A stretch of DNA of 64,000 nt. Origin: a virus (taxonomy: Duplodnaviria > Caudoviricetes). The position numbers were made by a program, and so were the translations under genes. Positions within the stretch are counted from its first letter, which is position 1, and every line of letters starts with the position of its first letter. The notes under the pieces were generated by a model, which saw only the letters and a program-made list of their open reading frames with translations, did not search any database and was not told the DNA's origin. The stretch spans positions 1 through 64,000 of IMG/VR virus record IMGVR_UViG_2061766007_000047. The stretch is one strand, 5' to 3'. Below are positions 19,328-55,400 of the stretch, in pieces.

Positions 19328-19876
19328 TTAAGTTTGTTTGGCATCTTCATCTCCTATATCCATGCTTTTTGCATATTTGTTTTCCCAAAGAGAAATCATG
19401 TGTGCAATCTCAGCAGGTGTTGCCGTTTCGATATCCTGTTGTTGGCATTCTTGAATACAACCTTGTAGTAATGTGTTAAATTCAGCCGAATTATAAGTGT
19501 GGGAAGGTCTGTAAACTCTATAGAAATAAACCTTCTTTCCATTTTCTTCCGTAACTTTTACACACTTAGTATGAATGGTTTCAAGTTCTTCCATGTACGA
19601 TTCGGGGGCGTTTGTTTTGTAAATCATCGGTTCGTCTTCGATGTACATTACCTGTCCATAATCAGCTATTAACTGATTCTTACAACGTGCCATTGAAATA
19701 CCTAGTTTCAGCCTAAGTTTATCGGTCAAGACGTGAAAATAAGCATTAGCGTCTAAGCTTCGCTTCTTTCGATGTTTTGTTAAATCCCATAACTGCTCTT
19801 TGTCTATGCCATCACCCATAAGGAATGTCATTATTGCAAGAGCATTTCCTGTGAATTTATCAGCCATTGCTCTCAC
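19328..19876 (-). CDS. NinB-like recombination accessory protein
   Basis: KKRSLDANAYFHVL...SHTYNSAEFNTLL...DIET. Confidence 0.65.
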   Translation of the reverse strand: MRAMADKFTGNALAIMTFLMGDGIDKEQLWDLTKHRKKRSLDANAYFHVLTDKLRLKLGISMARCKNQLIADYGQVMYIEDEPMIYKTNAPESYMEELETIHTKCVKVTEENGKKVYFYRVYRPSHTYNSAEFNTLLQGCIQECQQQDIETATPAEIAHMISLWENKYAKSMDIGDEDAKQT

Positions 19877-20615
19877 CCTTGTTTGGTGTCTTTGCTAAAT
19901 TATTTAAAATAGCAACAGCAGTAACTTGGGTCATTTCTTCAAGGGATTTAGTCTGTGCGTAGTACAGGATGGTCTTCATGTTAATTCCTGTTCTTTCCAT
20001 TTCATCCTTAATCATTTGAAGCTGTGCATCAGATATCTTAGCGTTCTGTTCGGGAACAAGGTTCTTATCAACAGAATCAATCATTTCTTGATTTTTCTGC
20101 TCGTCATTAAGCTGTGCTTCATGTTCCTGCTTCTTAACAGCTTCCTTCTCAGCCTTTTGCTTGTCGGCTACTTCCTTATCTGACTTCTTTTTATCCTCTA
20201 CAGCCTTTTTCTTTTCTTCATCTGTGGTTTCCTGCGTATCCTCGTCTACAGTATCATCGATACAGAAAAGACCATTTAGAGCATATTTTCTAGCATAAGT
20301 AGAAGATGCTCCTGTTATTTGGCTATCAGACATTCCTTTTACAGCTAAAGGCTCTCTTGCAAAAGCTGTGTTCTCAACAATACTCCCATCTTCAAGGTCA
20401 ACAAACCTTGCGGTAGTTTTTACGTAGATACGCTCTGCAATCTGCACCACATCGTCTGTCATAAACAGGGTTGCTCCAACTTCGACAAGTAATGGCTTGA
20501 CACCATCAAGAATGTCTTCGCAAGAACGATAGTTATATCCCCCAAATTTATTGAACTTCGATTTGGGCGCGTTCAGCTTCTTTTGTACCGTCAACAACTT
20601 TTCATACACACTCAT
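19860..20615 (-). CDS. erf: ERF-family single-strand annealing protein
   Basis: NKFGGYNYRSCEDIL, QITGASSTYARKYALNGLFCIDD. Confidence 0.9.
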   Translation of the reverse strand: MSVYEKLLTVQKKLNAPKSKFNKFGGYNYRSCEDILDGVKPLLVEVGATLFMTDDVVQIAERIYVKTTARFVDLEDGSIVENTAFAREPLAVKGMSDSQITGASSTYARKYALNGLFCIDDTVDEDTQETTDEEKKKAVEDKKKSDKEVADKQKAEKEAVKKQEHEAQLNDEQKNQEMIDSVDKNLVPEQNAKISDAQLQMIKDEMERTGINMKTILYYAQTKSLEEMTQVTAVAILNNLAKTPNKGESNG

Positions 20616-20618
20616 ACT

Positions 20619-21407
20619 TTATTCCTCTCTAAAAGTAATATTTGAAAACTTTAAGAACTGCCTTACCTGTTCTGCATCAGCTTCACTTACGATAAAATGA
20701 TGCATTCTGATTGCACTTGCTAAATCATCAAGCTTTTCGATTGGCTTCTTTATTTCAGCTTCTTTAACCTTTTCAACAACCTTATTCTTGTCGCTCAGAT
20801 ATTGAGTATTTCTCTGAATGGCTACAGAAAGATTATTCCCACTCTCTAAGTAGGCATCCAAACACTCCTGCTCAACCTCGCTATTGAGGGCTTTAATAGC
20901 ATTGATATCGTTCTTGATTTTCAAGACCATTCCGTTAAGGTCAAAGACGATATCTTGGTCTTTGGTTGAAACATTAAGCCACTTAGGGTTCTCGCTCATT
21001 ACCTTCTCAAAAGGTAGATACTGCTCCAACCCTTGAATATTGTTGTCGTATAAGGTCTTAATATGCTCCTGCTTCTCTCTAGCGCGTTCTTCATCAAATA
21101 GCTTTAATTGACTATTGATAAGGTTAATAGGCGCATCAACAAGTGCAATTACTTCCTTGCAACGACTTTCGAACTTCTGATAAGGTTCATTCCAAGCCTG
21201 TTTTACTGCCTTGCGGGAATCATCCAAATTTGATTTAAGCTTTCTCAAATCAGCCAACAGCTTCTTATCAGCTTTGATGGAATCCTCGGTAACAACATAA
21301 TCCCTGTACTCAGCCATTTTCTCTTTTAATTCAGCTTCAATAGCATCAAGGTTAGTGTTGATAACTCCCGCTTGTTGGTCTACTACCAATTCATTCAGTT
21401 CTGCCAT
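20619..21407 (-). CDS. DUF1351-like coiled-coil protein
   Basis: ADLRKL...RKAVK..WNEPY..FE...PI; usual neighbour of ERF. Confidence 0.75.
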   Translation of the reverse strand: MAELNELVVDQQAGVINTNLDAIEAELKEKMAEYRDYVVTEDSIKADKKLLADLRKLKSNLDDSRKAVKQAWNEPYQKFESRCKEVIALVDAPINLINSQLKLFDEERAREKQEHIKTLYDNNIQGLEQYLPFEKVMSENPKWLNVSTKDQDIVFDLNGMVLKIKNDINAIKALNSEVEQECLDAYLESGNNLSVAIQRNTQYLSDKNKVVEKVKEAEIKKPIEKLDDLASAIRMHHFIVSEADAEQVRQFLKFSNITFREE

Positions 21408-21888
21408 CTTCGTTTTCTTCCTCTCCTAAAATATCTGCCCTTATGTCTTCAATAGCTTTGAAAACAGGTGCAAATTCTGTTAGATTTTCGTACTTCTGCA
21501 TAAAGGATTGCATTTCTCTATACGCTCGGCGTAAAATAATATCTTTTGTATCGGGATTAGAAAAAGCTGTTTCAGCATTGATAAAGCGACCTTTTCTCTC
21601 GGTATCAGACACGTTGTAGTACGCTCTGATTTTTCTAGGCTTCTGTTCCTTTTCAACCTCAATAGCAAGGTTGATTATCACGTTTGTTGCCTGTGTAAGC
21701 CTGTATTTATGCCCTGCTACAGCATCATCCCACTCAAAAAGTTCGTGCAATGGGGATTCTTCGGGTTCTGCATTCTGTAAAAGCAGTTCAGAAGTAACCT
21801 TCCCATATTCCTTTTCGATTTTTTCAAACTCATGTCCTACTGTTTCAGCAGGAACACTAAATTGGTACATTTTCCACGAATAAACCAT
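21391..21888 (-). CDS. Conserved phage protein (SPLHELFEWDD motif); candidate accessory of the array locus
   Basis: 165-aa ORF co-oriented downstream of the array. Confidence 0.7.
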   Translation of the reverse strand: MVYSWKMYQFSVPAETVGHEFEKIEKEYGKVTSELLLQNAEPEESPLHELFEWDDAVAGHKYRLTQATNVIINLAIEVEKEQKPRKIRAYYNVSDTERKGRFINAETAFSNPDTKDIILRRAYREMQSFMQKYENLTEFAPVFKAIEDIRADILGEEENEDGRTE

Positions 21889-21914: not shown

Positions 21915-22115
21915 TTATTTTGTGTAAAGCATCATTTTGGTTTTTCCAAGTAATGAGAATCCAATAACTTCTCTATCGCCATAATTCTTACGCACAACGT
22001 TTTTATCAGCTTCAATAAGAATGCTTGGTGAACTCATAAAACCTGTTTTATTTGCATCAACAACAGCAAACATAACACCTTGCATATCTAGCTTTGTAAA
22101 CTCCAAAACTGTCAT
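21915..22115 (-). CDS. Small hypothetical protein immediately downstream of the array
   Basis: AAGGAG RBS just after the last GGCAGTT anchor. Confidence 0.65.
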   Translation of the reverse strand: MTVLEFTKLDMQGVMFAVVDANKTGFMSSPSILIEADKNVVRKNYGDREVIGFSLLGKTKMMLYTK

Positions 22116-22134: not shown

Positions 22135-22820
22135 AACTGCCAAGCCAAGCCACAACGTAACTGACCTCGACTAAACCCGCCGTACCCAAACTGCCTTACC
22201 TTACGAGAACCCAACAAGCCTTACCACAACTTGCCTTAACGCGCCATAACTGCCACAACTCGACTAACCTCACGTAGCCAAACCTCAACTCAACTAACCT
22301 TAACTGCCAAACCGAACCAAACCGAACCGTAACAGAACATAACACAACGAACCTCAACTGCCACACCAAGCCTTATCTGACCCGACAATAACGCGCCGTT
22401 CCTTAACTAGCCATAACCCAACTGCCTTACCACAACGTACCTAACCTCACCTAGCCTAAACAGACCCGAACCCACCTTGACTCACCTCAACTGCCGAACC
22501 CAACGTAACCATACCAAAGCCCACCATAACGAACCATACCAAAACTGCCTTACCTAAACAAAGCTTAACTAAACGTACCCAAACGTACCTCACCATAACT
22601 GCCAAAACTAACCGCAACTTGCCCTAACTCAGCAGAACTCACCTCGCCTTGCAGTACCTTACCGCGCCTAACCACGACTAGCCTAACACTACCTTAACTG
22701 CCAAATCTTTAGGTTATGTGGGATGCAATAAGCACCCCACAACCTTCAAACGCACCATAACTGACCGCGACTCGACAGAACATACATGACCCGAACTTAC
22801 CGCACCTTACCTCAACTGCC
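22135..22820 (-). ncRNA. Putative guide-RNA array: 10 units of GGCAGTT anchor + alternating NN and GGY/GTY (VIPR-like)
   Basis: + strand AACTGCC at 22135, 22189, 22248, 22302, 22356, 22420, 22489, 22543, 22597, 22696, 22814; between them a strict 5-nt period, mostly NN-ACC/GCC/AAC/GAC; no ORF >=60 aa. Confidence 0.85.
22711..22745 (-). other. Stem-loop between array units I and II
   Basis: AGGUU-GUGGG-G-UGC(UUAUU)GCA-U-CCCAC-AU-AACCU; the G-U pair favours the minus-strand RNA. Confidence 0.75.
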
Positions 22821-22827
22821 AAACCAC

Positions 22828-23505
22828 TTAGTTATTGACCTCTTCACTTGACTCAATGTGATAACGCCCGAAAATACCGTCTTTTTCGGCTCTCCACTCG
22901 CCAAGACCGCATGAATAGCCACCTGCGTTGATTATGTTAAGTATCTGTTCAAGCGTTAATACTCCCGACTTGTTGTAACTTACAACGATATCCGCGTACC
23001 AATCCTTAAACTCTGCACGATAGCGTAAATCCGCAGTACCCATGCCGATTGTAACGTTGTCTTCACGTATTTCGGGAACACTACCCTTAATTTCAAACAA
23101 TTCTCCAAATTCACTCTCTATAAAATAAGCGCATCTAAGCATTGTCTGATTAGGAGTCCAACCAAGCCTGTATGCTGTAGAATTAGCACTCTGTTTAATT
23201 CCCGTCACAGGGAATCCCCACTTTGCACCATTTTTGACAGCCTGTTCAAAAGCTTTAGGATTTGATTCGGGCTTTGGAGTTAGCCAATACATAGAATTGA
23301 TAAATTCGTCGTAAGGGTCACGAACCTCCTTTGCCTTAGTTACTGTTGATGTTGCTTTAGTCTGCTTATCCAAAATCATCTTTTTGGATTTCTCCGACCA
23401 CGCATGAACAATCAGTGGGCTATCACCCTTAATCCGAATAGATACTTTCTGAATATCAAGTGGTCTGATTTCGATTACACTACCTTCTGTTTTCTTTGTT
23501 GCCAT
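22828..23505 (-). CDS. RAMP/Cas7-like RNA-binding protein (Vipr-like), putative effector of the adjacent array
   Basis: N-terminal strand IRIKGDSPLIVH, FPVTGIKQS, C-terminal Gly-rich loop GGYSCGLGEWRAEKDGIFGRY; array begins 7 nt after the stop. Confidence 0.7.
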   Translation of the reverse strand: MATKKTEGSVIEIRPLDIQKVSIRIKGDSPLIVHAWSEKSKKMILDKQTKATSTVTKAKEVRDPYDEFINSMYWLTPKPESNPKAFEQAVKNGAKWGFPVTGIKQSANSTAYRLGWTPNQTMLRCAYFIESEFGELFEIKGSVPEIREDNVTIGMGTADLRYRAEFKDWYADIVVSYNKSGVLTLEQILNIINAGGYSCGLGEWRAEKDGIFGRYHIESSEEVNN

Positions 23506-23583
23506 AATTTTTTCTCCTTTTCTAATTTGAAATAATGTGTTAGAATAGGAGTCGGAAAACGAGCGAAAAGTTATCCAACTCCG

Positions 23584-23616
23584 AAAAGCGGTTAAGGTGC
23601 AGACTTGACCGCTTTT
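23584..23616. terminator. Terminator-like hairpin upstream of the RAMP-like gene
   Basis: AAAAGCGGTTAAG-GTGCAGA-CTTGACCGCTTTT. Confidence 0.7.
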
Positions 23617-23861
23617 TAGTTACCTTTCTTTCTTGTTTCAACATATGAAACCTGTTTGTTTGTCTGAATAATTGATTTGAGATAAACGTTTGTGTCAGTA
23701 CACTCCCTGCTCTCAAATGACAGACTTCCATCCGATGAAATACGGATAGTAAAGTCCACTTGATGTTTTGTGGCATCATCCAACAAAACGTATAGATTTT
23801 TCTTACATCCATCAAAAAGATATTCAATAATGCTTCTTGATAAAATTGGCTCTGTTTTCAT
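23616..23861 (-). CDS. Hypothetical protein
   Basis: 81 aa with GAGG RBS. Confidence 0.55.
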   Translation of the reverse strand: MKTEPILSRSIIEYLFDGCKKNLYVLLDDATKHQVDFTIRISSDGSLSFESRECTDTNVYLKSIIQTNKQVSYVETRKKGN

Positions 23862-23875
23862 GCAATCCTCTTATT

Positions 23876-24436
23876 TCACTTGTAATAACGCTGTCCGTAC
23901 AACTCGTACAAAAATTCCTTGTTTTGGCTATGCCAACTATTAGATGAATTACTTGATGCTTCAACCCATAAAGAACCTTTGCTCCAATCAATGCCACGTT
24001 CTACCATGGCAAGTGCCAAGTGCGACTCTAAATTAGGTTCTGCTTTAGCAAACTTTCCTTCCGATACCACAGTGAACTGCCCTTCTTGGTAAATCACTTC
24101 CTTGACAGTATTAGGAAAGTCTTCGCTTTTAAGTCGATTAACAAGAACCATCATTTCGTGATACTGACTTGCAGTACATCCACCTGCTTCACATTTAGCA
24201 AGTTTCATAAGCATCATGGCTTCTTCTTGCGTAAAGCTAATAGTTGTTTCATGTCGAATATCCTGCTTACAGGTATACAGCCTTGACAATTCTTCATCCG
24301 TCAGATATTTAATTGGCTCAGTATCAATTATTACTTGTGTTTCCTCTTCTACTTCTTCCTCTTCATCTCCTGTGGCTACCGCTAAACATCCCGCAACCAA
24401 CAGTACACATAAAACAATTCCGATAAACCTTTTCAT
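23876..24436 (-). CDS. Cell wall hydrolase (SleB/Hydrolase_2-like) with signal peptide
   Basis: LAKCEAGG, VLVNRLKSEDFPNTVKEVIYQEGQF; hydrophobic N-terminus. Confidence 0.85.
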   Translation of the reverse strand: MKRFIGIVLCVLLVAGCLAVATGDEEEEVEEETQVIIDTEPIKYLTDEELSRLYTCKQDIRHETTISFTQEEAMMLMKLAKCEAGGCTASQYHEMMVLVNRLKSEDFPNTVKEVIYQEGQFTVVSEGKFAKAEPNLESHLALAMVERGIDWSKGSLWVEASSNSSNSWHSQNKEFLYELYGQRYYK

Positions 24437-36363: not shown

Positions 36364-37209
36364 TTAAGTTGTCTTGGTATATCGAATGATAGTGTAAAAC
36401 TCAACTGTTCCGCTTGTATGGTCATTCTTATAAGTCCACCTTAACTTTGAGTTGGTAGTTGCTTGTTTTACGAATGAACCATACTGCGTTACACTTGCAA
36501 AAGTATCTCCGTTTGATGCTTTCAAAGGTACAGGCGCAATACCCGCACGATTAGTAGAAGTATCTGTGTATTGATACCATGCAAAATGCTGACAATAAAT
36601 AATATGTTTCATATTAGAATCAATAGTGTCAGCATACACTGTAGAAGAAGTACCTTTTTCAACAATTTCATAAACCACTTTTTCATATATTGTTTCACCA
36701 TTCAGCCACTTACCTACTTCACGTTCTTTCGTACTATACTCGTAAGTCCTTGGCAATACATTGGGAAGTGGGTCTATTATCTCCGACATATCTGCTCTAG
36801 GCATAGCATCTGTGAGTTTAAAATACAAAGTATCAAAGTAAGTTTTTAACTTAGACTTGATATTACTCCATGTACTCTTTCTTGCCCCACTTGCTGATAT
36901 ATCATACATGGGAACAAAATCGCCATCAGCTATGGCTGTGAAAGTGTTATCATCTGTATGATAAGCATTTTCATCTATGCCACCACCGCCACCGCTTGAA
37001 AACTCTCTCCATTTTCCTGTATCGGCATCTACTGTGTTTGTGGATTTCCATTGATATGTCTTATCTGTAGCAACGCAATAAGCCATGCAACCATCGTACA
37101 TAGTTGCATCGGCTACTGCTTTCATGTTTGCTAATGTATCGTATTTAAGTCTTCCGTCAAGGGGCTTTGCTCCTTGAAAGCTGAAATTATCACCAATAAC
37201 AAGGCTCAT
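36364..37209 (-). CDS. Fibre/adhesin-like protein B
   Basis: Paralogue of B'. Confidence 0.7.
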   Translation of the reverse strand: MSLVIGDNFSFQGAKPLDGRLKYDTLANMKAVADATMYDGCMAYCVATDKTYQWKSTNTVDADTGKWREFSSGGGGGIDENAYHTDDNTFTAIADGDFVPMYDISASGARKSTWSNIKSKLKTYFDTLYFKLTDAMPRADMSEIIDPLPNVLPRTYEYSTKEREVGKWLNGETIYEKVVYEIVEKGTSSTVYADTIDSNMKHIIYCQHFAWYQYTDTSTNRAGIAPVPLKASNGDTFASVTQYGSFVKQATTNSKLRWTYKNDHTSGTVEFYTIIRYTKTT

Positions 37210-37226
37210 AATCTTTTCCCCCTTTC

Positions 37227-43432: not shown

Positions 43433-46400
43433 TTAATCCACAAATTTCCTTCCCATGCCTTGCTGTCCTCTGCGGTTCGCTTCTGCTATTTGTCTGTCGC
43501 CAATCACAACGTCAACATCCTTTCTATCGATAGCATTTTCAAGTCTTGAAGTCTGACTCTCAATAGCACTTACCATACGGTCATTTGCCATTGATACACC
43601 GTTTGCCACAGCGGTTACAATTTGGTCGTTGTTCGCTACTGCGGTTCTACCACCGAAGCTTCCGACAAATTCGGGAGTTCCATTCTCACGGGCAACGAAT
43701 ATTTCACCCGAATTAGGCATACCACCCATTTGATAACCTTTAGCAAGGAATCTTTGATACCAAGCATCAAACAAAGTTTTTGCTTCTACAGCATTCTCAG
43801 CAACAAATTTTCCTGCATCTACACTAAACTTGTCTAGTTTAGTTTTTCCTTCTGCTATTTCCTTTAAACTAGCCGTTTTATCAAAGTATTGATTTACAGG
43901 ATACTCTTTTGATGAACCATATGAATAGCTAGACTTTCCAAACGATACATAAGCATCATCTTCCGTGATTTTTTTGACAGCTTCATCTAATTCTTTTTGT
44001 CTAGCTTGATTAGCAACCTTTTGTTCTTTCTCAGAGTCAGTTTCAAGTCCTGCAATCTTTTGAAGATTATCTAAATAATATTTTTGCTTAGTAGCCCTTG
44101 AATCAGCATTTGAACTACTATTCCAAGCTAAATAAGAATTGAAGTATTGTTTAGCCTTGGCTTTATCGTCCGAACTAATAGACGAATCCTTTTGAATAGC
44201 TTTATATACATCATAGGCTTTTTGATTAGCAGAACCAAAATTAGCCATGTCTTCGGTGATACCAAGAGAACGGATGTAGTCTTTCATCTCGTTAATGACT
44301 TTAGTATCAGTGATTTTGTCTTTTGAATCAGCCGAATTACCTGTGCCATTACTTTGTAAGAACCAACTTATTTCATTACCCTGCGAATCTCTATCACTTA
44401 TCAGAGCATTTGCAAGAATTTTCTTACCCGAATCAGTTTTAGCAAGGTCATTAACATTAAAGATACCGCCATTAGCACCAAGTCTAAGATTCTTTTGGGT
44501 TTGAGTCTTACCGTTTTGACCCGTCACAGCGTCTTTCAAATTCTTAAGGTTCATTAAGAATCCTGCCGCATCTTTAGGGCTACCCATGTTACCCGAAGTA
44601 CGCATTTTTATATTAGATAATAAAGTCTTAGCATTATCTTTTTGTTGCCACGTAGCATATGGGCTATTAACAATATCGTTATAATACGATTGAGCAAGAT
44701 TCTCTAAAGCTTTAGGGTCATTGTAGCCATCAGCCATGAGTGAATACAATTTCAAGGCATCTAATTGGTTTTTATAGGTTTCAGAACTACTAGCATTTTG
44801 GTTTTTCATCAAGTAATCATATCTTGACTTAGCCTGTGCTTTTGTGGAATCATCACCTTTCGCCATTATATTATCGTAATACTGCTGTGCTTCATTACGA
44901 TAATTTTCTACCTTTCTATTTTCTTCATCTCTAAGGGCTTTCCACTTATCAAGAACTCCGTATTTATAAGCCCCTAACGAAGTGCTTATAGCATAGCCCT
45001 TCTTAGATTCATCAACAGATGAATCTAATTTACCTAATGTTGTATCAACCCATTTAACAGCCATATCCTTGTTATCATCGATAAGACTATCATCCACATA
45101 GGTTTTCGCACCATAAGCACCGTTAAGTCTACCTGTAAATATTCTGTCATTCATCAATGCATCAGAAGAATAATGCCAATTTCCTTCCGAATCTAACCAC
45201 GTATCGCCCTTATTAGGTTGATTATTTTTAGGTTCTTCACCACCATCATCCTGTGGTTGGTTGCCACCATCATCCTGTGGGTGGTCTTCTCCACCGCCGT
45301 TATCTCCACTATCATTGTTTTGTGGGTGGTCTTCTCCACCGCCGTTATTTCCACTACCATTGTTTTGCGGGTGGTCTTTTCCACCACCGTTATCTACAAG
45401 GGTTCCACCATCAGCAGTTGAAGTGTTAGGAACGTTATACTTTTCCATTTCCTTTTGAACAAGCTTTTTAGCATCTGACTCTGACAAATCGGCATAACTA
45501 TCAAGCGCATTCTTATAAGACTTGCCATTATATTTCTTAGCAAGATATTTAGCCCATCTCTTCTTAAGGAATGCCAATAATTTCTTTCTATCTGCGGCAG
45601 ACAAAGGATTTCCTTTTGAATCAGTAATAAGATACTTACCACTTGCAATAAGGGCTTTCATTTCATCTGAAAGAGCATTTTCATCAAGTCTTACCTTCTT
45701 ACCATCGACAAGTGCAAACAAAGATGCTTTTGAACCATTAGCATTCTGCCATACAATATTACTCCCGCCCGAACTATTACCAATAGTATGCCACCATCCA
45801 CTGTCGCCTGTTGATGAATAACCTGTATTATCACTCTCATCTATAGTCTGTGGACTATATGGAGTTTGATGGAAACCCTCGGTGTAATTTGGAATTTCGG
45901 GAACAGGGTCGCCACCATCACTACTTCCGCTAGTAGGTGGTTCATAACCGCCATTACCAACATCACTTGTAGGTGTAGGTTCATTTTTGATATCTTTAAT
46001 ATTCCTACCACCTTTACCGCCACCTTCATTGCCACCCATAGCACAACCGCCACAGTTGCAATTACAATTACAGTTACAGGTAATGTTAGATACTGAATTT
46101 CTAAGCCCTGTAGTAAATCCATTAAGACCCTTATATAAATCATTGATTGCTCTAGTATTTGCTTCTACAGCCTTTGTATTAGCTGATTTAGCGTTGGTAT
46201 TATTAACAAGGTGAGCATCGTGAGTATTTGTGTTGAAGTTTTTTATAATATCGCCAAGTATATTAGCTTCTGCATGAGCAACAGCTTCAATATTCTCAAT
46301 GACAGCGGTAACACGAAGGTTCGCATCCTCAATTGCTCTCTTAATTGTTTCATAAAGGGAACTACTATCAAATGCAGTTCTGATAATATCTGCAAGATTG

Positions 46401-49400
46401 TTCAACGCATCGGTATTACCGTGTATTGCAGTTATAGCGTTATTGATTGCATCAATCAGAGCATTTATTCTACCTATCAAAGTGTTTATAGTAGCAATAC
46501 ATCTCTCGATAGCATTCTTAAGGTTTGTTATTGCAGGGGTATTATTACCTATCGCTTCGGTAAGCTTTTCTATAGCCTTAGTACATTGCTTAATAGCATC
46601 TTTAAGGTTATTTAAAGCTACAATGCACTTATTGATTGCGTCAGTACATTTCTTTACCGCATCAGTAAGCAACTTTAATTCAGCAATCAGTTCATTGATT
46701 ACTTTAATAAGGTTTTCTATAGTAGAAATCAGCTTATTTATAGCCTTGGTGAGATTTTTAATTACAGTAATAAGACTTTCAACTCCAACAAGCTTGAATG
46801 TCATATCATCCAAGTCAAACATATCACCTAAGAAGTCTTCAATATTAAATGACTCAAACAGCCTGTAAATTCTGCCAAGCCACTTATCGATAATATTGTA
46901 GACTTCTGCCATCTTGTATTCGGTCTGTAATGGAAGGCTATCAAGGAATGAAAACTGTCCTGTTCCACCTGTTGTTTCATCTCCAATAACATTGGCTTCA
47001 TCAAAGCCATCGTAAAGACCGTTATTGTCTTGTTTAGGTATTTCGCCCGTAGGTACAGGTTCATCATCAATATTTACAGTTCCCTCATAAGAGCCAAGTT
47101 GTCCTGCGATACCTAACGCATTATAAACTCTTTTTCCTTCTGCCGAACTACTTTGGTCTTTAGGCTTCTCAAACTTCTTAAATACAACATCTACTGCATC
47201 ATATAAATGCGTAGCATTTCTAAGTGTATTTAATACATCAGAATACTCAGATGACATTAACTCTTTTTTCAAATATTCTAATTGACCTTGTAAATCATCT
47301 ACAGAACGTCCATTAAGAGTATTTAATAATCCTTGTTTTCTATCATCCGTAGTCCATTGAGCCAATCCGTAGCCTTTATTGTCTGTAAAGTCCCCACCAT
47401 TATTCATTTTATTAGTGTAGGCTTCATCAGTTATGGTATCGTTATAAACATCTTGAAGGTTATTACTTCTTAACCCACTTTCCTCATAAAGATTACCCAT
47501 TAAGCCATAAACACCATTTTCATTGCCTATAAAACTCATAAGATAATCACGGATGTATTTTGCAGTAGATGGCAATGATAAGTTATTATAGCTACTATTG
47601 GAATCTGCGATTTTTCTGCTTGAATCATCTAATTTAATAATGCCATTAGATAATTTATTACCACTTACATTAGATGTGTTTTCACCAAGATAAATGGGTG
47701 ATGTTTCAAATATTGTTTCGTTTCCATAACGAGGAAGAGAACCATATCCCCAACCACCTGTTGCCTTATTGTAATATTCAGAAATACCATCTAAGAAGTC
47801 TTCTGCACTAGGAACAAGACCACTTATATCGCTCCATCTATCCCCTGCTTCAAACTGTGGCTTTGCAATATAGCCTGTTCCACCATAGCCACTCCAATCA
47901 ATACCACCATCAGTATTGATGTTGATTGTCTGTGTGCCACCTGTACCACCACTAAGATTTCCATAGATAGTGCCAACCTTAAGAGCATTTGCGACGATAT
48001 TTGATACAGTAAGAAGCTGTGCGTTTATATTAGATACATTAAGCGCATTTGAAGTAATTTTAGATGCATCAAGAACATTCGCCATTACCTTTTCAGCACG
48101 GAGTTCGGGGGTTTCAATTAACTGTGCAACAATCTTTTCGAACTCCTGTACTTCCGCAGTTAAATCTCCAAGTCCGTTCTCTTTTGCAACAATCTTATCT
48201 ACTTCAAACAGCTTTGCAGTAGCTTTCTTGGTTATCTCAAATTTCTCGGCTGTAACCTTATCCGTAACTTCAAGAAGTTCTGTTGTAATCTTCTCTGCTT
48301 CAAGAAGTTTTGTTGTTATCTTCTTTGCATCAAGAAGTTTAGTTTTAATCTTTTTCGCATCAATTAGCGGAGTTGTAATACTTTCAATTACTTCAATAAG
48401 TGGAGTAGTAATCTTTTCTGCAATTTCTACAAGCGGCGCAGTAATCTTTTCAGACACTTCAAGTAATCTTGCTGTAATTGTATCTACATCAAGGTTGTTA
48501 CTAAGATTGCCACCCTTTGCTTCAATAGTATTTCCACCATAAGCCTTTTCCATATCCTTACTTACGGCGTCATTATCAGTTACTATTTCCTTAACGGTAA
48601 GCTTATCTGCAATAATATCTATAACAGTAAGCGTATCTGCAAACATCTCTTCGGAATCAAGGGTATCACCCTTAAACACCTTTACCTCAATCGCGTCAGC
48701 CTTTATCTTACCTAATTTAGCATCTTCAAATTGAAGTTCTGCATTGCCTTGAATATCTTCAAGCTTATACTTCTTGTCTTTATCAACAACAGGCTTAATA
48801 TCAACAGGGATTTCTGCTTCTGCCTTATCCTTGCCAAACAGGAACTCACCTATATTGCCAAAGAAATCTTTAACTCCCTTAACTCCATCTTCAATTTTCT
48901 TTTTAACCCTAGATAACAGGCTTTCACCTGCCTTATCTTCATCATGGAAAAAGATGTTATCAAACAAATTAGCAAGGCTAAAGTCACCTGTAAACATTCC
49001 TTGCAATAATCCAACGATAAACCCACCTATTCCATCTTTAGGAAGAATATGTGCATCTTGAAGAAGTCTAATAGGATTAAGTCTAGCCTTTATCTTCTCC
49101 CAAATTTTTCCAAGAATAGTAGTAAGGAAATCAACAAGAGCATCTGCAATTCCATCAATAAATCCCGATACTCCCTCTACTGAAAACAGTGATTTTGTAA
49201 GTGCTGTAATATCTTCAAACTTTTCGGTAAACTTTCTTATAAGAATACTTACAATAGTTCCCAAAAGTTTACCTATAGGTTCTTCAAGACGTTCTACAAT
49301 CCTAGCAATTTCCTTATGAAGCCTACCTTTTTCATCAAAGAAAGTATCAATGATATCACAAAGAGTATCAATGATTACAGTAAGACTATTTACAATCTCG

Positions 49401-52400
49401 TCTTCATGTTCTTCAAGGTATTCAGCCAATCCATCAGCAAATTCTCTGATAGCCTTAATGATATTCGTTCCGTTATCATCAAAGAAGATAGCAATACCAT
49501 TTATGATACCAACAAGGATACCTGCCATGGTTGTGCCAAGTTCATAGAAGGAATTACTTGCAAACATCTCTTTAAAGATGTTTGATATGAAAGTGCTAAA
49601 TGACTTAAATGCATTCTCAATGTCTTGTTTTATTTTATTTCTATTAGCATAGAGTTCATCAATTACATCAGCAATACCTGCACCAATCTGTTTACCAAGT
49701 TCTTCCCAATCAATACCCTCAATTACAGCAAAGATTGTAAATGCCAACTTGATTGTTGCTTTACCTACATTAGTAATGATTCTCTGAATCTGTCCCGATT
49801 GAACGATGCCATTGAGATAGTTCGATATTCTTGTTGCTAAATCATCCCAATCAATAGTTAGAACATCTTCTGTGAACTCAGCGACAAACTTAAGACCCCT
49901 AATAGTTAAATCGCCAAACATTCTCCAAAAGTTATCGTTATGAATGGTATCGTTGATAAACTTAAATATCTTATCACCAATTCTATACAGATTGTCTTCA
50001 AGGGTCTTCCAATCAATAGAATCATAAGTAATTGCAAGGTGATTGAATATCCAATCAGCAAGAGAGAAATCTGCGGGGATAGCATCAAGAATACCCTTAA
50101 CCGCGTTAGACAACGCATTAAGCGCATCAGCAGGAAGCTTAAATAATGTATCCCAATTAACATTCTGCAATCCTGTAATAAGTGAATCAGCAATTGCCTT
50201 ACCAATGTCATAAGCCTTTAACTTCTTAATAGCCTTATCAAACAAATCAATAATGCCATTTACAAAGTTACTAATAGAAACAAATATATCAGTTAAGAAT
50301 TTTTCATCAGTAAACAGACCATTGACAACATCTGCGATATTCTGCGCCCATTTGTCAATAGCTTCATAAAATTCATCCCATCTAATTCCTTCAAGGAATC
50401 TCTCAATCGCTAATTTAAGTGAATCAACAGCATTGGCAAAATCAATATCACCAAGCTTATTGAATGCTTCAAGGACAATGTTTACAAACTTAGCAATAGA
50501 ATCGCCAAGAGTAATCCAAAATTCCTTATTAGCCATTGCTGTGTTGATGAAATCAACAAGTCCTGTTACCCAACCTTCAACAGTATGACGAAGACGTTCC
50601 CAATCAAACTTTTGAAGTGCTTCTGCAATGCTATCTGTTAGCTGTTGAGCCATTCCGCTAAAATCAAACGTCCAAGCCCATTCTTCAAAGAATCTCATAA
50701 TAGCATCGAGAGTGTTGACAATAAGAGTAACTATTCTATCCCATAGCTTTTCATCAGCAAAGATATCATTCCAAAATTCAGCTAATTTATGCGCCCACTT
50801 AGTTACGGTTCTATAAACTCTATCCCAATCAATTTGGTCGATAGCATTTACGATGAACTCTGAAAGCCATGCGGCTAAAGCATGAGGGTCAAAATTATCT
50901 GCCAACCTTTCAAGTATCACAAATACCGTATTGATAAGGTCGCCAAGAGTCTTTCCAAGCCACTCGGCTAAATCAAGCCTAGATAAGATGTAGTTAATAT
51001 AACCCATAACCTTATCTATAAAATCTTCGATTGTCTTCCAAATCTTCTGCCAATCAATATTCTTTAGGAAGTCAACAATCTTATCAATAATATCCTTAAG
51101 AGCAGGGATATTTAAGCCAAATCCCTCGTCTATCCAAACTTTCTCAAATTCTATATCGGGAGTAACACCCCCTTTATCCTGCTTATCGTTAAGGATATTT
51201 AATTCATCAAGACCGTTTGTAAGGTTCTTAGCTTTCTTTGCTGTTTCGTCTAAGCTATCACCATAGCTTTCATAGAACTTCTTTGCTCTGAGGTAATATG
51301 GCTGTCCCGTCAAAATAGCCATAAACTTAGCCATATTCTCAGCCATTCCTTGAAGTGATGTAAGGAATGTTTCAGCAGGAGCAGATATGGCATTGATAAG
51401 TGGCTCAAAGATAGCTACCACTTGGTTAGCTAATCTTCTAAGAGCAGAGAATACGATAGATACGTTGTATTCCAACTGCAACATAGCATCATCGGCATTT
51501 TTCTCAAAGAGAACCATATCCTCAAATGCTTGTTTCATCTTATTAAAGAATGCTGTAATTGACTTTCTCATAAGCATACGAGTCATCATTGAGAAATATC
51601 TTGTCAATGTCTTTACTGCACCCTTCAATATATGGGTCTGCTTAATTATCTTTGAAAGTTGGAAATTGCTATTAACAAGCGTCTTCACAAATTTAGGTGA
51701 AACAGCCATCATAATAGACTTAATTCCCTTAACAGCAGGGGCAACTGCACCACCTAATTTACCAAAGATAGAGATAATTTTACCGCTAACTTCTCCAATT
51801 TTATGCAAGGCACTTACGACTATCTCTGCCCCACTCTTTACAGCCGACGCAACCTTACTTACTGCACCCGCAACAGCGTTAAATGCTCCAACAACCTTAT
51901 CAAGCATGGTCTTAGCAAATTGAGTAAGACTCTGAACAAATTGAATCAAAGTATCTCTCACCTTACTCATTGTCTTCCACCATGTTTGAATTACAGCAAC
52001 TACAACACCAACTACTGCGGATACCTGTGCTACTGCGGTTGCTACTGTTCCAAGTGTTCCTGCAAGTGACGAAAGTGATGCAAGTTGTGAATCGCCCATA
52101 ACGGCTGTTCCATCCTTAACAGCCTTACCAAACATATTGGAGATATTTCCAAGCGCACCAAGAACAGGATTCTTACTACCCGACAGCATAGAACCGAATT
52201 GTCCAAAACCATTTCCTACACTATCGCGCATTTCCTGTGAAGCACGTTCTGCTTCATCAGCCATTCGAGTCATTTCATCAGCCGCTATTCTAGCGGAATC
52301 AGCAACATCCTCAATGGAAAGTTCCATATTTTTAAGGGCTTCATCAGAATCCTCGATTTCCTTCGTTATTTCATCCATTCTAATACGGATTACTTCAAAC

Positions 52401-55400
52401 ATCTGTCCCATATTAGAACCCGAAGGAGCATCAAATCCCTTAAAGCGTTTCATTACCTCTTCATAACGCTTATATTCTTGCTTAAGGTTAGCTAAATATT
52501 GCGCACCCTCTGCATAAGTTTCAAAACGAGGTGCAGATTCAATCGCAATATGAAGATTTCTGATTGTATCTCTTAAGCTGTCTGCTTTCGCTCTTAACTG
52601 CTCATAGAGAACCATCTGCCTTTCAGTAAGTTCGGGCTTATCATTAACAACATTACTACGATTAACTTTTGCCTTTTCCTCTTCGATTCTCTTCATCGTA
52701 GAGTGAAGCATTCTTTCAGCTTCTCTAAGCTGTTTTCTTAAACTATTTACAGGCGCAGTTAAATCAAAGAGATGCGAGTAATCAACATCATCAATAGCTT
52801 CATTAAGGTTTCTAGCAAATCTGCTATACTCTTCATCCGTCTTCTGAATTACACGACTAAAGTTTGCAACGCCATCGCTATCGAGCGTAATGTTAATCTT
52901 ATTATTGCTACCTTTAATGTTTGCTAAGTGGTCTGCGAGTTTAGCAAGGGCTTCTACAATAACCTCAAGCTTATCAGCTTCTACGTTCTTCATATCTGCC
53001 TGTGTAAGAGTCTTAATTACATCGGCAACACCCTTGAACGCATTCTTATCAATACTAGGCGCACCGCCTAATATCATAACGAGATTATTCAGTTCCTCAT
53101 TAAGTGCCTTAAACTTAGTTGTATCAAGCTTATTGACACCTTCAATACTCTTTACAGTAGACAGAATTACCTGTGCATTCTGCATTGAAGAATCGGTGTA
53201 CTGCAATGTATCAAGAAGCTGTGTTAATGGCTGTGTATTGATAAATGTATCTTTCGGGATACTTCTAAGAACAGAAAGTATCTGTCCAACGCCCTGCGCA
53301 AAATCAGCTAATTTAGGAAGTGAAAGACCATTAAATTCCTTAAGGGTTACTCCAAGATTTGCAATAGCATTGTCTTTCGGGTCAAATCCCTCGTCCTTCT
53401 TAGCTAAATCAATCAGCTTATGAATTGCATTAAGTGTGAAGGAAATCTTATCAAATCCTTTAGGAAGGTCTTCATAAAATTTCCTTAACTGATTAGCTAA
53501 TGTTGTAAGTGTCTTGTTACTTCCCTGTAAATCGGTATACTTAAGAGAGTTAAGCAGGATACCAACGGGCTGTGCCATGTTGGTAAGCTTATCAAACTTC
53601 GCACCAAGAACATCGATATTCTTATCCTTTGCAAGTTTCTCTAAATCTTCAAGAAGAGTCCTTAATGGAGATATGTCTACCGTCTTGCCCTTAAGTTGAT
53701 TAAGCGCACTAAGAAGAGTACCAAGTCCTTGTCCAAGACCTGCTACGTTCTTATAAGAGTCATTCAGCTTCTTAAATTCTTTTAGAGTATCAAATAACGC
53801 GCTATTGGTTACAGGTTGAAGTGCATCTGTAAAATCAGTTGAAATAATCTCAATGTTTGACCTTACATCATACAGAGCGTCAGACGCATTCTTAAAAGAA
53901 GAAACCATAAGGTTCATAGTATCTCTTACAGAACCCGATTGAGTTGCTATCGCTCCATACGCCTTATAAAGTGCTTCAAGAACATGAGTAATCTTCGTTG
54001 CACTTGATACAAATTCATCATTATTGAAAGCATTTTTGATAGCAGTTCCGATAGCTTCAATACTTCCAACATCAATTTGTTTTGTTTCTTTCAGAGCAGT
54101 AACAAGCTGTGCTAATGCACTTGTTATATTAGATACATTAGTGTATTGTCTGCCCGTCAAAACCCCATCAAACGAACCAAGAGCAGTTGCAATCTTATTG
54201 ATATACTCAAAGTCACTCTTCTTAGAACCCTTCATAGCTTCGGTAGCTTTTGAAAGGTTCATAAGACCAACAGAAATCTCATTTAAACCAACAAGGTTAG
54301 AATCAAGTCCATTAAACTCATGGAGTGCCTTACCCAAGTCGCCAAGTCTATTGATATTTCCTTGCGAAATTTTCTCTATATTAGATACTTTAACAAGGAC
54401 ATTAACCATCTTATCAACGCCGTTATAAATAGCGTTGAGTCCTTCAAGACTCTTTCCAAGTTCAGCAAACTCTTGTAATGCCTTACCCAAATTACCAAAT
54501 TGAGTAATTGCTGACCCTGCTTTGCCCTTATATTCAGACAGCATCTTTAAGGTGTCTATCATTAAGACAACACCCTTATGTACCTTTTCTATTCCTTCAA
54601 GGCTTGTTCCAAGATTAGCAAATGCCTGTAATGCTTCTCCAAGAGCCTTGAATTGTTCGATTGAGCCACTTGCATCACCCGTGTACTCAGATAATATCTT
54701 AAGAACATCAACAAGCTTATTGATACCACCTACAGCATCATCAAGTCCTTCAAGCTTCTTTGAAATACCATCAAGTTTACTGATAGTATCAACGAAATCG
54801 TTGAGAAGCTTAATCATATCGCTTATAGCCGAAGGTTCTTCTTCAACTTTAGGAATAGATGCTTTTGGAGTTCTAGCGTATGTCTGTTCCCTTACGTCAG
54901 AATTTTGGAATTTAGCATACGTCTGCGTCTTTACATCAAAAGCATTTGATTTCTGTCTACCACCAAAAATCTTATTCTGCCATTGATACATTTCTTGAAG
55001 CTGTTTATTAGCTTCTATCATAGCTGAATTTTCTTTTTCTAATTCAGCCACATTAACATATTGTCCAAGATTAGCGTCAACACCCTTTAATTGAGCGACC
55101 AACTCTTGTTGTCTTTTCACCCACTTCGGGAGGGCTTCTTCATAAATATTTTGATTTTCACCGCCCGATATAGTAGCAATTCTACCTTTAATACTCTTAA
55201 GCATATCAGCATTAAAGTTTACGCGTTCCGTTACTTTCACTAACTGATTAAGAATATCAATTCTCTCATTTATAAGACTTTCAAGGGTCTTGTTATCGGC
55301 TTCAACACTTTGAGTTAAGCCACTCTCGCCCGACACAGGAGAAGTAGAAAACTGTTTAGCAAGGGCATCACGATAAATAGACAATGCCTTTTCTGTTTCC

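What the first reader, a model, noticed from the sequence alone, without database searches (positions are those of the whole stretch)
22135..23505. RAMP/Cas7-like gene plus non-CRISPR pentamer-periodic RNA array: candidate programmable RNA-guided system
Seen: 7 nt after the stop of a 225-aa gene begins an array with 11 exact GGCAGTT anchors (minus strand) delimiting 10 units of 74, 99, 54, 54, 69, 64, 54, 54, 59 and 54 nt. All lengths equal 9+5n. Each unit alternates a variable dinucleotide with a near-constant GGY/GTY triplet, e.g. GGCAGTT-TG-GGT-AC-GGC-GG-GTT-TA-GTC-GA-GGT-CA... Phase is never lost within a unit, the NN strings are unique per unit, and there is no ORF. It is neither CRISPR (no contiguous spacers, no cas1/cas2) nor a simple satellite. 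Inference: each unit is a guide RNA on which a protein filament binds one triplet per subunit and displays the NN bases for gapped target pairing. From memory this fits the recently described phage 'VIPR' (alternating GGY/NN) systems; I cannot verify that here, so novelty needs checking.
Basis: partly seen in the sequence, partly recalled or inferred. Interest (0 to 1): 0.97.

Follow-up and report, generated by a model that had tools for sequence, protein, structure and literature searches.

The report
Phage VIPR guide-RNA system, staggered array
This 108-kb phage carries a VIPR system, a kind first described in 2026: a small Cas7-like protein plus an array of ten pentamer-coded guide RNAs, at least three of which decode to genes of rival phages; it is a clear new example, not a new kind.

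Summary
On the minus strand, 7 nt after the stop of the 225-aa gene, 11 exact GGCAGTT anchors punctuate 109 NN-GKY pentamers. One detail is wrong: the first spacing is 118 nt (about 70 periodic nt plus a hairpin), not 74.

The protein is a Vipr homologue. It matches the solved SUSP1 Vipr by sequence (E 4e-6; profile 1e-8), keeps all five GGY-contacting residues, and folds like Csm3/Cas7. In 78 of 80 related viral loci the same kind of array follows the gene, and in 77 of 80 a winged-helix-like 165-aa gene follows the array.

The junction GGCAGKY is two pentamers sharing one base, the published "staggered" vrRNA array.

Under the published one-base-skip rule:
- Guide 1 matches the vipr genes of rival relatives (24/24), while the phage's own site is recoded (15/24).
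- Guide 5 matches HK97-type portal genes (21 contigs, all in codon phase).
- Guide 9 matches the start of tail-tube genes (30 contigs).
- Guides 5 and 9 converge on the same contigs in six cases.
- Guide 4 probably matches a TraG-like ATPase gene.

This is a new member of a known kind.

The parts
22828..23505 (-). vipr gene: 225-aa stand-alone RAMP (Cas7-like) protein
   Evidence: phmmer against PDB hits 36pp 'SUSP1 Vipr protein' at E 4.2e-6; the family profile gives 1.1e-8. SUSP1 contact residues H17, R138, D177, W178 and R179 align to H34, R163, E203, W204 and R205, all invariant in alignment A1. AF2 pLDDT is 76 and the top Foldseek hits are Csm3/Cas7 at E 7e-7. Also matches phrog_4652.
22135..22820 (-). 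vrRNA array: 10 guides of NN-GKY pentamers, punctuated by GGCAGTT (NNGGC and CAGTT pentamers sharing the C)
   Evidence: With the 1-nt overlap, units 2-10 are whole numbers of pentamers (20, 11, 11, 14, 13, 11, 11, 12, 11); unit 1 (119 nt, about 14 periodic pentamers plus the hairpin) is not. In relatives the junction is GGCAGKY and anchor spacing is 4 mod 5 in 345 of 508 cases.
22749..22818 (-). guide 1 (14 pentamers): predicted to target the vipr genes of rival relatives
   Evidence: 24 of 24 contiguous NN bases match in L073, L075, L061 and L063 at codons EKAKRQMLEAQM, with the skip base at the wobble position. The best of 20 shuffled guides reached 22/28 against 25/28 observed. At least 20/24 in 54 of 80 relatives. 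The phage's own vipr scores 15/24.
22705..22751 (-). stable hairpin after guide 1; role unknown
   Evidence: dG -23.3 kcal/mol, z -3.6. No U-tract follows. Not seen in the relatives examined.
22601..22700 (-). guide 2 (20 pentamers); no target found
22547..22601 (-). guide 3 (11 pentamers); no credible target
   Evidence: One non-coding hit at 19/22, which is chance level.
22493..22547 (-). guide 4 (11 pentamers): probable target is a TraG/VirB4-like P-loop ATPase gene, on the antisense strand
   Evidence: 13 viral contigs match. Ten share one ~800-aa ATPase. A divergent homologue (L114) matches 21/22 at the same QYINPMDIN motif, in codon phase. L002 carries this guide at 21/22.
22424..22493 (-). 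guide 5 (14 pentamers): predicted to target HK97-type portal genes
   Evidence: An exact 20-base pattern hits 21 viral contigs. All are in phase 0 in PF04860 portal ORFs at the motif RD[DE]KGRLYYEY, with matches up to 27/28. The phage's own genome has no PF04860.
22360..22424 (-). guide 6 (13 pentamers); weak, mixed hits
22306..22360 (-). guide 7 (11 pentamers); no hit
22252..22306 (-). guide 8 (11 pentamers); weak hits; identical guide in closest relative L002
22193..22252 (-). guide 9 (12 pentamers): predicted to target the start codon and first 10 codons of siphophage tail-tube genes
   Evidence: 31 metagenome contigs match. Thirty sit at the ATG of a ~190-aa ORF starting MANKVKFGLKN, behind an RBS, with varied wobble bases and matches up to 24/24. 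The ORF is PF06488. It also matches 18-19/22 in 6 of the 21 portal-target contigs, 4.1-5.3 kb downstream on the same strand.
22139..22193 (-). guide 10 (11 pentamers); no hit
21391..21888 (-). 165-aa conserved gene after the array: candidate vipr-accessory protein (vap), winged-helix-like
   Evidence: Present directly after the array in 77 of 80 relatives. Matches phrog_15946. AF2 pLDDT is 90.6. VIA-align puts residues 3-112 closest to winged-helix domains at Z 4.5-6.7, which is modest. Foldseek against PDB gave nothing significant.
21915..22115 (-). 66-aa ORF between array and candidate vap; probably not part of the system
   Evidence: Its RBS and ATG start 20 nt after the last anchor. No homologue in any of the 80 relatives and no family match.

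Best explanation
This is a VIPR (Viral Interference Programmable Repeat) system in the early operon of a 108-kb phage, probably of gut or rumen Clostridia.

The 225-aa Vipr protein is a minimal RAMP. It is expected to polymerise along each vrRNA, one protomer per pentamer. It would lock the G-K-Y bases away and present the NN dinucleotides.

The filament would then bind double-stranded DNA whose sequence reads NN-x-NN-x (one skipped base) and silence transcription there.

The array is of the 'staggered' form. Each guide runs from CAGTT to NNGGC, and neighbouring guides share one base (GG[C]AGTT).

At least three guides are aimed at competitors: rival relatives' vipr genes, HK97-type portal genes and tail-tube gene starts. 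A fourth is probably aimed at a TraG-like ATPase gene of other mobile elements. The skipped base falls on the codon wobble position, so synonymous drift does not free the target.

The phage spares itself. Its own vipr is recoded at the guide-1 site, and it has no portal or tail-tube gene of the targeted families.

Shown here: homology, array anatomy, conserved synteny and the target matches. Inferred from the published SUSP1 and P. fulva work: filament assembly, DNA binding and silencing, and processing at the junction.
For: Protein:
- Sequence match to the solved SUSP1 Vipr.
- The five GGY-contact residues are conserved.
- Csm3/Cas7 fold.

Array:
- 109 NN-GKY pentamers, unique in the genome.
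- Units 2-10 are whole numbers of pentamers under the 1-nt overlap.
- The same junction and spacing rule holds across relatives.
- This matches the legend of fig. S18 in 10.64898/2026.04.26.720920.

Synteny:
- An array follows vipr in 78 of 80 loci, always on the same strand.
- The 165-aa gene follows the array in 77 of 80.

Setting:
- Virus record, 100% complete by CheckV.
- No cas1 or cas2.
- A relative's locus sits beside integrase, repressor and a Cro-like gene.

Targets:
- Only skip = 1 gives above-control matches. Skip = 3 finds only the array itself.
- Guide 1 matches rival vipr 24/24, against 15/24 in the phage's own gene.
- Guide 5 matches 21 portal genes, all in phase.
- Guide 9 matches 30 tail-tube gene starts.
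- Guides 5 and 9 co-occur on 6 contigs.
- No self-target above control.
- The vipr, portal and tail guides have the same sense as the mRNA, so they can pair only with the template DNA strand. The ATPase guide is antisense. Use of both strands fits DNA targeting.
Against: - No expression, processing, RNP or binding data exist for this locus.
- The similarity to SUSP1 Vipr is distant. Only about 70 C-terminal residues align significantly.
- The triplet is GKY rather than GGY (36% GTY).
- Guides 2-10 have no structured 3' tail like that of type II vrRNAs.
- Six of ten guides have no confident target.
- The collection scans required exact matches and could not be paired with shuffled-pattern controls.
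- The accessory gene's winged-helix assignment is weak (Z below 7).
- The host is inferred only from prophage relatives at 63% identity or less.
Confidence: 0.92

Rival explanations
1. It is a Vipr-type RNA-guided complex, but the outcome differs from transcriptional silencing. The conserved 165-aa partner or a host factor might bring target cleavage, replication block or RNA targeting.
For: Published VIPR types III-V carry nucleases or helicases. The 165-aa partner has no assigned family. Its fold match is weak. The distance to the characterised type II proteins is large.
Against: No nuclease or helicase domain was detected in the conserved module. The partner looks winged-helix-like, as in the DNA-binding vaps of types II, VI and VII. 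Three guides have mRNA sense and so cannot pair with the transcript.
Confidence: 0.06
2. The array works mainly at the DNA or RNA level as something other than guides. It could be a sponge or decoy that titrates rivals' Vipr proteins, or a set of protein-binding repeats that regulate the operon it sits in.
For: Satellites use solo vrRNAs to redirect a phage's VIPR. The array lies inside an operon, 20 nt before the next RBS. Six guides lack targets.
Against: A cognate vipr is present and intact. Four guides decode to conserved genes of other elements, in codon phase, far beyond chance. NN strings are hypervariable between relatives while the triplets are kept.
Confidence: 0.015
3. It is a non-functional simple satellite, or a Gly/Val-rich coding repeat that happens to lie beside a RAMP-like gene.
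For: Two short mechanical ORFs overlap the array.
Against: Period 5 with a -1 shift at each anchor breaks every reading frame. Synteny is conserved in 78 of 80 loci, with conserved triplets and variable NN. The target matches argue against it.
Confidence: 0.005

Closest known systems
Type II VIPR of Escherichia phage SUSP1 and the Pseudomonas fulva prophage (bioRxiv 10.64898/2026.04.26.720920 and .720927; PDB 36pp)
   Same: - Stand-alone RAMP protein with the same GGY-contact residues (H, R, D/E, W, R).
- Pentamer guides of conserved triplet plus variable NN.
- 10-20 repeats per guide.
- Phage-encoded, with a small accessory gene.
- Targets follow the 1-nt-skip rule with the skip at codon wobble, lie on both strands, and belong to competing mobile elements including rival vipr genes.
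   Different: - Only distant sequence similarity, significant over about 70 residues.
- The gene order is vipr, then array, then accessory gene. In SUSP1 the order is vipr, vap1, then array.
- Guides abut with a 1-nt overlap and have no pseudoknot tail.
- The second triplet base is G or U.
- The predicted targets are structural genes (portal, tail tube) of other phages, not a satellite recombinase or lysis-lysogeny regulators.
Staggered vrRNA arrays (fig. S18 of 10.64898/2026.04.26.720920)
   Same: Adjacent vrRNAs are derived from positions that overlap by 1 nt, so the end of one marks the start of the next. Here NNGG[C]AGTT is two pentamers sharing the C, and units 2-10 become whole numbers of pentamers.
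   Different: I could read only the legend. Which VIPR type shows this form, and whether its junction is GGCAGKY, could not be checked. Processing of staggered arrays was not among the architectures the paper says it confirmed by sRNA-seq.
vipr-targeting vrRNAs of SUSP1-family phages (10.64898/2026.10.15.759431)
   Same: Guides are aimed at early codons of relatives' vipr genes, and self-match scores are lower than non-self scores.
   Different: In that work most such guides are solo vrRNAs in phages that have lost vipr. Here a VIPR-positive phage carries the guide, and its own vipr is recoded at the site. The recoding includes a change at a column where at least 90% of relatives have Ala, and a synonymous CTN-to-TTG Leu change.
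Class 1 CRISPR Cas7/Csm3 backbone filaments
   Same: RRM core, G-loop and thumb. One subunit per repeat of guide length, with the thumb periodically breaking the duplex. Foldseek E is 7e-7 to Csm3.
   Different: - No CRISPR repeats or spacers and no cas1/cas2.
- No Cas10 or Cas11 found in the neighbouring ORFs screened.
- Period 5 with 3 bases flipped, rather than period 6 with 1 flipped.
- Guides are hard-wired and not acquired.

Membership tests
VIPR system | Vipr protein: minimal RAMP with RRM core, G-loop and thumb, homologous to described Vipr proteins | tested here: met
   phmmer E 4.2e-6 and profile E 1.1e-8 to PDB 36pp SUSP1 Vipr. G-loop CGLGEWR aligns with CGVGDWR. H34, R163, E203, W204 and R205 align to H17, R138, D177, W178 and R179. 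The fold matches Csm3/Cas7.
VIPR system | vrRNA: at least 4 tandem YNNGG-type pentamers next to vipr, with conserved triplet and hypervariable NN | tested here: met
   109 pentamers in 10 units of 11-20. Triplet G(94%)-K(96%)-Y(99%). 15 of the 16 possible dinucleotides occur at NN. The variant is GKY rather than strict GGY.
VIPR system | Non-CRISPR, minimal locus (vipr plus an accessory gene), mostly viral | tested here: met
   Virus record of 108,491 bp, 100% complete by CheckV. No Cas1 or Cas2. A vipr-array-165-aa module is conserved in 77-78 of 80 viral loci.
VIPR system | Targets obey the 1-nt-skip (NNx) rule, with skip bases at codon wobble, on either strand, and no self-targets | tested here: met
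   Only skip = 1 gives above-control matches. The vipr, portal, tail-tube and ATPase targets are all in codon phase. Own genome has no hit above shuffled controls.
VIPR system | vrRNAs are expressed, co-purify with Vipr, and the RNP binds and silences dsDNA | not testable with these tools
   Needs sRNA-seq, pull-down and reporter assays.
VIPR type II (SUSP1 / P. fulva) | Each vrRNA ends in an invariant structured 3' tail (a pseudoknot in the SUSP1 clade) | tested here: not met
   Guides 2-10 abut directly through GG[C]AGTT with no tail. Only guide 1 is followed by a hairpin, and that is absent from the relatives examined. No Rfam match.
VIPR with staggered array | Adjacent vrRNAs overlap by 1 nt | tested here: met
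   Units 2-10 are whole numbers of pentamers only if the C of GGCAGTT is shared. In relatives GGCAGKY spacing is 4 mod 5 in 345 of 508 cases. The true RNA ends are not known.
VIPR types I-VII (which one) | Placement in the published Vipr phylogeny and a matching vap family (vap1-6) | not testable with these tools
   The paper's trees and data files are not held. The winged-helix-like partner would fit the DNA-binding vaps of types II, VI and VII.
CRISPR-Cas class 1 | Repeat-spacer array with cas1/cas2 adaptation genes and a multi-protein effector | tested here: not met
   No contiguous spacers. No Cas1 or Cas2. Single RAMP gene.

The most novel reading that the evidence does not exclude
Staggered VIPR arrays of this clade may follow their own grammar.
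- The constant CA-GKY pentamer that opens every guide is never used for pairing. It mismatched in the vipr and portal targets. It could be a register-setting handle and processing signal, cut at the shared C, perhaps by Vipr itself in the manner of Cas6.
- The tolerated G/U at the second triplet base could tune filament stability.
- The anti-vipr guide combined with a recoded own site would define 'immunity groups' among co-infecting Clostridia phages, a VIPR-against-VIPR arms race inside VIPR-positive phages.
Probability: 0.3. Interest if true: 0.55.

Novelty: new member of a known kind. Interest (0 to 1): 0.35.

Why it matters
This is not a discovery of principle, because VIPR and its code were published in 2026. 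It is still a clean, fully readable natural example from uncultured gut or rumen phages.

It shows the staggered array form in detail. It shows a G/U-tolerant triplet. It offers a concrete target set: rival vipr, portal, tail tube and a TraG-like ATPase. This extends the 'inter-phage warfare' picture from regulators and satellite recombinases to the structural genes of competitor siphophages.

The self-sparing recoding of the phage's own vipr is a testable signature of VIPR-against-VIPR conflict.

A side observation has practical value. Cultured Mycobacterium phages such as Donkeykong carry a homologue whose array is annotated as a protein-coding gene. That offers a tractable model and flags an annotation error.

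Tried and rejected
- Pfam and NCBIfam gave nothing for Vipr, the 66-aa ORF or the 165-aa ORF.
- Rfam gave no hit in the region, so there are no hammerhead-interspersed units.
- Skip lengths 0 and 2 gave no above-control targets. Skip 3 found only the array itself.
- Guide 3 gave one non-coding hit at 19/22, judged chance.
- Guides 7 and 10 gave no exact 18-base hits.
- Guides 6 and 8 gave mixed genes and phases with little extension beyond the forced bases. I left them unassigned.
- Guide 2 gave no match of 80% or more in any fetched locus.
- The 24-base guide-1 core found nothing in genome contigs as an exact pattern. With mismatches allowed it reaches at least 21/26 in 11 of 40 prophage relatives.
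- The portal pattern found 1 hit in 401 Clostridia genomes, at one mismatch, with 0 in controls. This is uninformative about the host.
- Relatives' guides do not hit this genome above control: 3 hits against 1.
- The hairpin after guide 1 is not conserved in relatives, so it was not treated as a family feature.
- 'Missing CC' among the NN: CC is absent here (0 of 118) but makes up 2.9% in relatives. It is a low-frequency dinucleotide, not a rule.
- Foldseek against PDB for the 165-aa protein gave nothing significant. BFVD returned only uncharacterised phage proteins.
- No complex prediction was run, since filament assembly needs the RNA.
Full report
OBSERVATION

The 225-aa ORF lies at 22828..23505 on the minus strand. 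Its TAA stop is followed by 7 nt and then the first of 11 exact GGCAGTT motifs.

The spacings are 118, 99, 54, 54, 69, 64, 54, 54, 59 and 54 nt.

The window holds 17 GGCAGTT against 6.2 +/- 2.5 expected, and 11 of them lie within 690 nt.

Between anchors the sequence is a strict period-5 pattern. Of 109 pentamers, position 3 is G in 102, position 4 is G in 66 and T in 39, and position 5 is T in 86 and C in 22. Positions 1-2 vary freely. A phase-coherent scan finds nothing comparable anywhere else in the 108,491-bp genome on either strand.

ARRAY GRAMMAR

GGCAGTT is best read as two pentamers, NNGGC and CAGTT, that share the C. With that reading units 2-10 are whole numbers of pentamers: 20, 11, 11, 14, 13, 11, 11, 12 and 11. 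Unit 1 is the exception, with about 14 periodic pentamers followed by the hairpin (119 nt in all). Each unit opens with the constant CAGTT and closes with NNGGC.

In 80 related viral loci the junction is GGCAGKY, most often GGCAGGC. Anchor spacing is 4 mod 5 in 345 of 508 cases, with modes at 49, 54, 59, 64 and 69 nt.

[quoted passage not shown] S18 legend).

THE PROTEIN

Pfam and NCBIfam find nothing. PHROGs gives phrog_4652, of unknown function.

phmmer against PDB sequences gives one hit: 36pp, 'SUSP1 Vipr protein', at E 4.2e-6. A 23-member family profile improves this to 1.1e-8 and adds a weak N-terminal stretch.

The cryo-EM paper names the SUSP1 residues that hold the GGY bases: H17 and D177 for G1, R138 and W178 for G2, and R179 for Y3. 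In the HMMER alignments these fall on H34, E203, R163, W204 and R205 of this protein. All five are invariant in the family alignment.

The AlphaFold model (pLDDT 76, pTM 0.72) matches Csm3/Cas7 subunits of type III and VII complexes, with Foldseek E 7e-7 and TM about 0.5.

G2 is held by a salt bridge and stacking rather than by base-specific hydrogen bonds. This may explain why U is tolerated there. That link is my inference.

CONSERVATION AND SETTING

The family is large. There are 3029 relatives at E 1e-3 or better in the 5.8-billion-protein set and 2578 representatives at the 50% identity level.

In 78 of 80 IMG/VR loci an NNGKY array starts just after the homologue, always on the same strand. 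A few loci also have an upstream array.

The 165-aa gene at 21391..21888 follows the array in 77 of 80 loci. The 66-aa ORF between them occurs in none.

The 165-aa protein models well (pLDDT 90.6). Its residues 3-112 resemble winged-helix domains, with VIA-align Z of 4.5-6.7 to SelB, Z-alpha, Fur, MecI and S25e-type domains. Foldseek finds nothing significant. This fits the DNA-binding vaps described for VIPR types II, VI and VII, but it is weak evidence.

The window belongs to a virus record rated 100% complete. No Cas1 or Cas2 is present.

A 75%-identical relative sits just downstream of integrase, an HTH repressor, a Cro-like gene and a cell-wall hydrolase. That places it in the early operon beside the lysogeny switch.

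Prophage relatives lie in gut and rumen Clostridia MAGs, including Oscillospiraceae, Lachnospiraceae, Ruminococcaceae and Faecalibacterium. The best is 63% identical. The host assignment is therefore an inference.

TARGETS

I applied the published rule: concatenate the NN dinucleotides with one wildcard between them and search both strands. I first searched the phage genome plus the 80 loci, about 0.6 Mb, with each guide's dinucleotide order shuffled 20 times as control. Skip lengths 0 and 2 gave nothing above control. Skip 3 found only the array itself. Skip 1 gave one clear outlier.

Guide 1
- It matches 25/28, with 24 contiguous NN bases perfect, inside the vipr genes of L073, L075, L061 and L063.
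- The site is codons E-K-A-K-R-Q-M-L-E-A-Q-M, with every skipped base at the wobble position. The best of the 20 shuffled controls reached 22.
- At the same site 54 of 80 relatives score at least 20/24. So do 11 of 40 prophage relatives in bacterial MAGs, at 21/26 or better.
- The phage's own vipr reads E-K-S-K-K-M-I-L-D-K-Q-T there and scores 15/24.
- The differences include Ser at a column where at least 90% of relatives have Ala, and a synonymous CTN-to-TTG leucine.

Guide 5
- An exact 20-base pattern found 21 IMG/VR contigs.
- All 21 sites are in phase 0 of a 410-470-aa ORF at R-D-[DE]-K-G-R-L-Y-Y-E-Y. Full-guide matches reach 27/28.
- The ORFs are PF04860 portal proteins at E 1e-129 or lower.
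- The phage itself has no PF04860 gene.

Guide 9
- An exact 20-base pattern found 31 metagenome contigs.
- Thirty sites lie at the ATG and first ten codons of a ~190-aa ORF, M-A-N-K-V-K-F-G-L-K-N. An RBS precedes it, wobble bases and flanks vary, and matches reach 24/24.
- The ORF is a PF06488 tail-tube protein.
- The phage has no homologue.

Convergence of guides 5 and 9
- Six of the 21 portal-target contigs also carry a guide-9 site at 18-19/22.
- It sits at the start of a ~196-aa tail gene, 4.1-5.3 kb downstream on the same strand.
- So two guides hit one structural module.

Guide 4
- It found 13 contigs. Ten share a ~800-aa TraG/VirB4-like P-loop ATPase.
- A divergent homologue matches 21/22 at the same Q-Y-I-N-P-M-D-I-N motif, on the antisense strand and in phase.
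- I rate this target probable.

Remaining guides and other checks
- The other six guides have no confident target.
- No self-target exceeds control.
- Relatives' guides do not hit this genome above control.
- One relative, L070, carries a guide that hits seven other relatives' vipr genes at 19/20.
- The closest relative (L002, 86% identical Vipr) shares guides 4 and 8 but not the others. This points to guide turnover.

MECHANISM

The vipr, portal and tail-tube guides have the same sense as the mRNA. They can pair only with the template DNA strand, not with the transcript. The ATPase guide is antisense. Use of both strands is what the literature reports for DNA-binding VIPR.

By homology to SUSP1 and P. 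fulva, I expect the following steps:
- one Vipr protomer per pentamer;
- G-K-Y bases flipped out;
- NN bases paired to NN-x targets in an R-loop triplex;
- transcriptional silencing.

None of these steps is shown for this locus. How the precursor is cut at GG[C]AGTT is unknown. The constant CA of the first pentamer did not pair in the vipr or portal targets, so it is probably a handle and not a guide position. That is my inference.

COMPARISON AND NOVELTY

Every defining feature I could test is met:
- Vipr homology;
- pentamer vrRNAs;
- a minimal non-CRISPR viral locus;
- the 1-nt-skip code with skipped bases at codon wobble;
- no self-targeting.

The type II hallmark, an invariant structured 3' tail, is not met. 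The locus fits the staggered form instead. Which of the seven published types it belongs to cannot be decided without the paper's data files, which are not held.

Several related features are already published: non-canonical triplets, vipr-targeting guides and self-match avoidance. What is new here is limited to the instance itself:
- the GKY triplet in a staggered array;
- the gene order vipr, array, winged-helix-like partner;
- structural-gene targets;
- a VIPR-positive phage that targets rivals' vipr while its own site is recoded.

Verdict: a new member of a known kind, of moderate-to-low interest.

EARLIER NOTES OF THIS SCAN

First-reader notes on this same stretch already proposed the skip-one decoding, the stand-alone RAMP and the internal hairpin. 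I looked them up only after the vipr, portal and ATPase target matches were in hand; the tail-tube match and the convergence came later.

Noticed in passing
L175:2022-2331 (Mycobacterium phage Donkeykong NC_051648.1, about 36909-37218): A staggered NNGGC pentamer array with GGCAGGC junctions lies upstream of the 36%-identical Vipr homologue gp49. It sits under the annotated CDS gp48 'hypothetical protein'. 27 Mycobacterium and 5 Gordonia phage records carry the homologue. This is a likely mis-annotation and a cultured model for this form of VIPR.
   Followed up: partly
window 43433-60691 (-): A single 5752-aa ORF, unusually long for a phage gene. An earlier scan note calls it a polyvalent tape measure protein.
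   Followed up: no
window 23583-23617: A 14-bp hairpin with T-runs on both sides lies between the 81-aa ORF and vipr, and looks like a terminator. vipr and the array may therefore have their own promoter or depend on read-through. No convincing sigma-70 promoter was found between the hairpin and vipr.
   Followed up: partly
L025:2640-2930, L026:2648-2924, L034:2063-2284, L070:2624-2776, L004:448-522: Some relatives carry a second pentamer array upstream of vipr as well as the downstream one.
   Followed up: no
L070:3681-3735: A guide in this relative matches the vipr genes of seven other relatives at 19/20, near codons 144-153, and does not match its own. Guide-to-relative hits totalled 19 against 1 in shuffled controls.
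   Followed up: partly
L002:3669-4110: The closest relative (86% identical Vipr) shares guide 8 exactly and guide 4 at 21/22, but lacks guide 1 and its hairpin. Guide content turns over faster than the protein.
   Followed up: partly
window 23876-24436 (-): A cell-wall hydrolase (PF07486, endolysin-like PHROGs) lies in the early operon just upstream of vipr. The same arrangement is seen in a few relatives and in L132. This is an odd place for a lysis-type enzyme.
   Followed up: no
window 19860-20615 (-): An Erf-like single-strand annealing protein (phrog_155) lies downstream of the module. This confirms an early or recombination-region setting.
   Followed up: no
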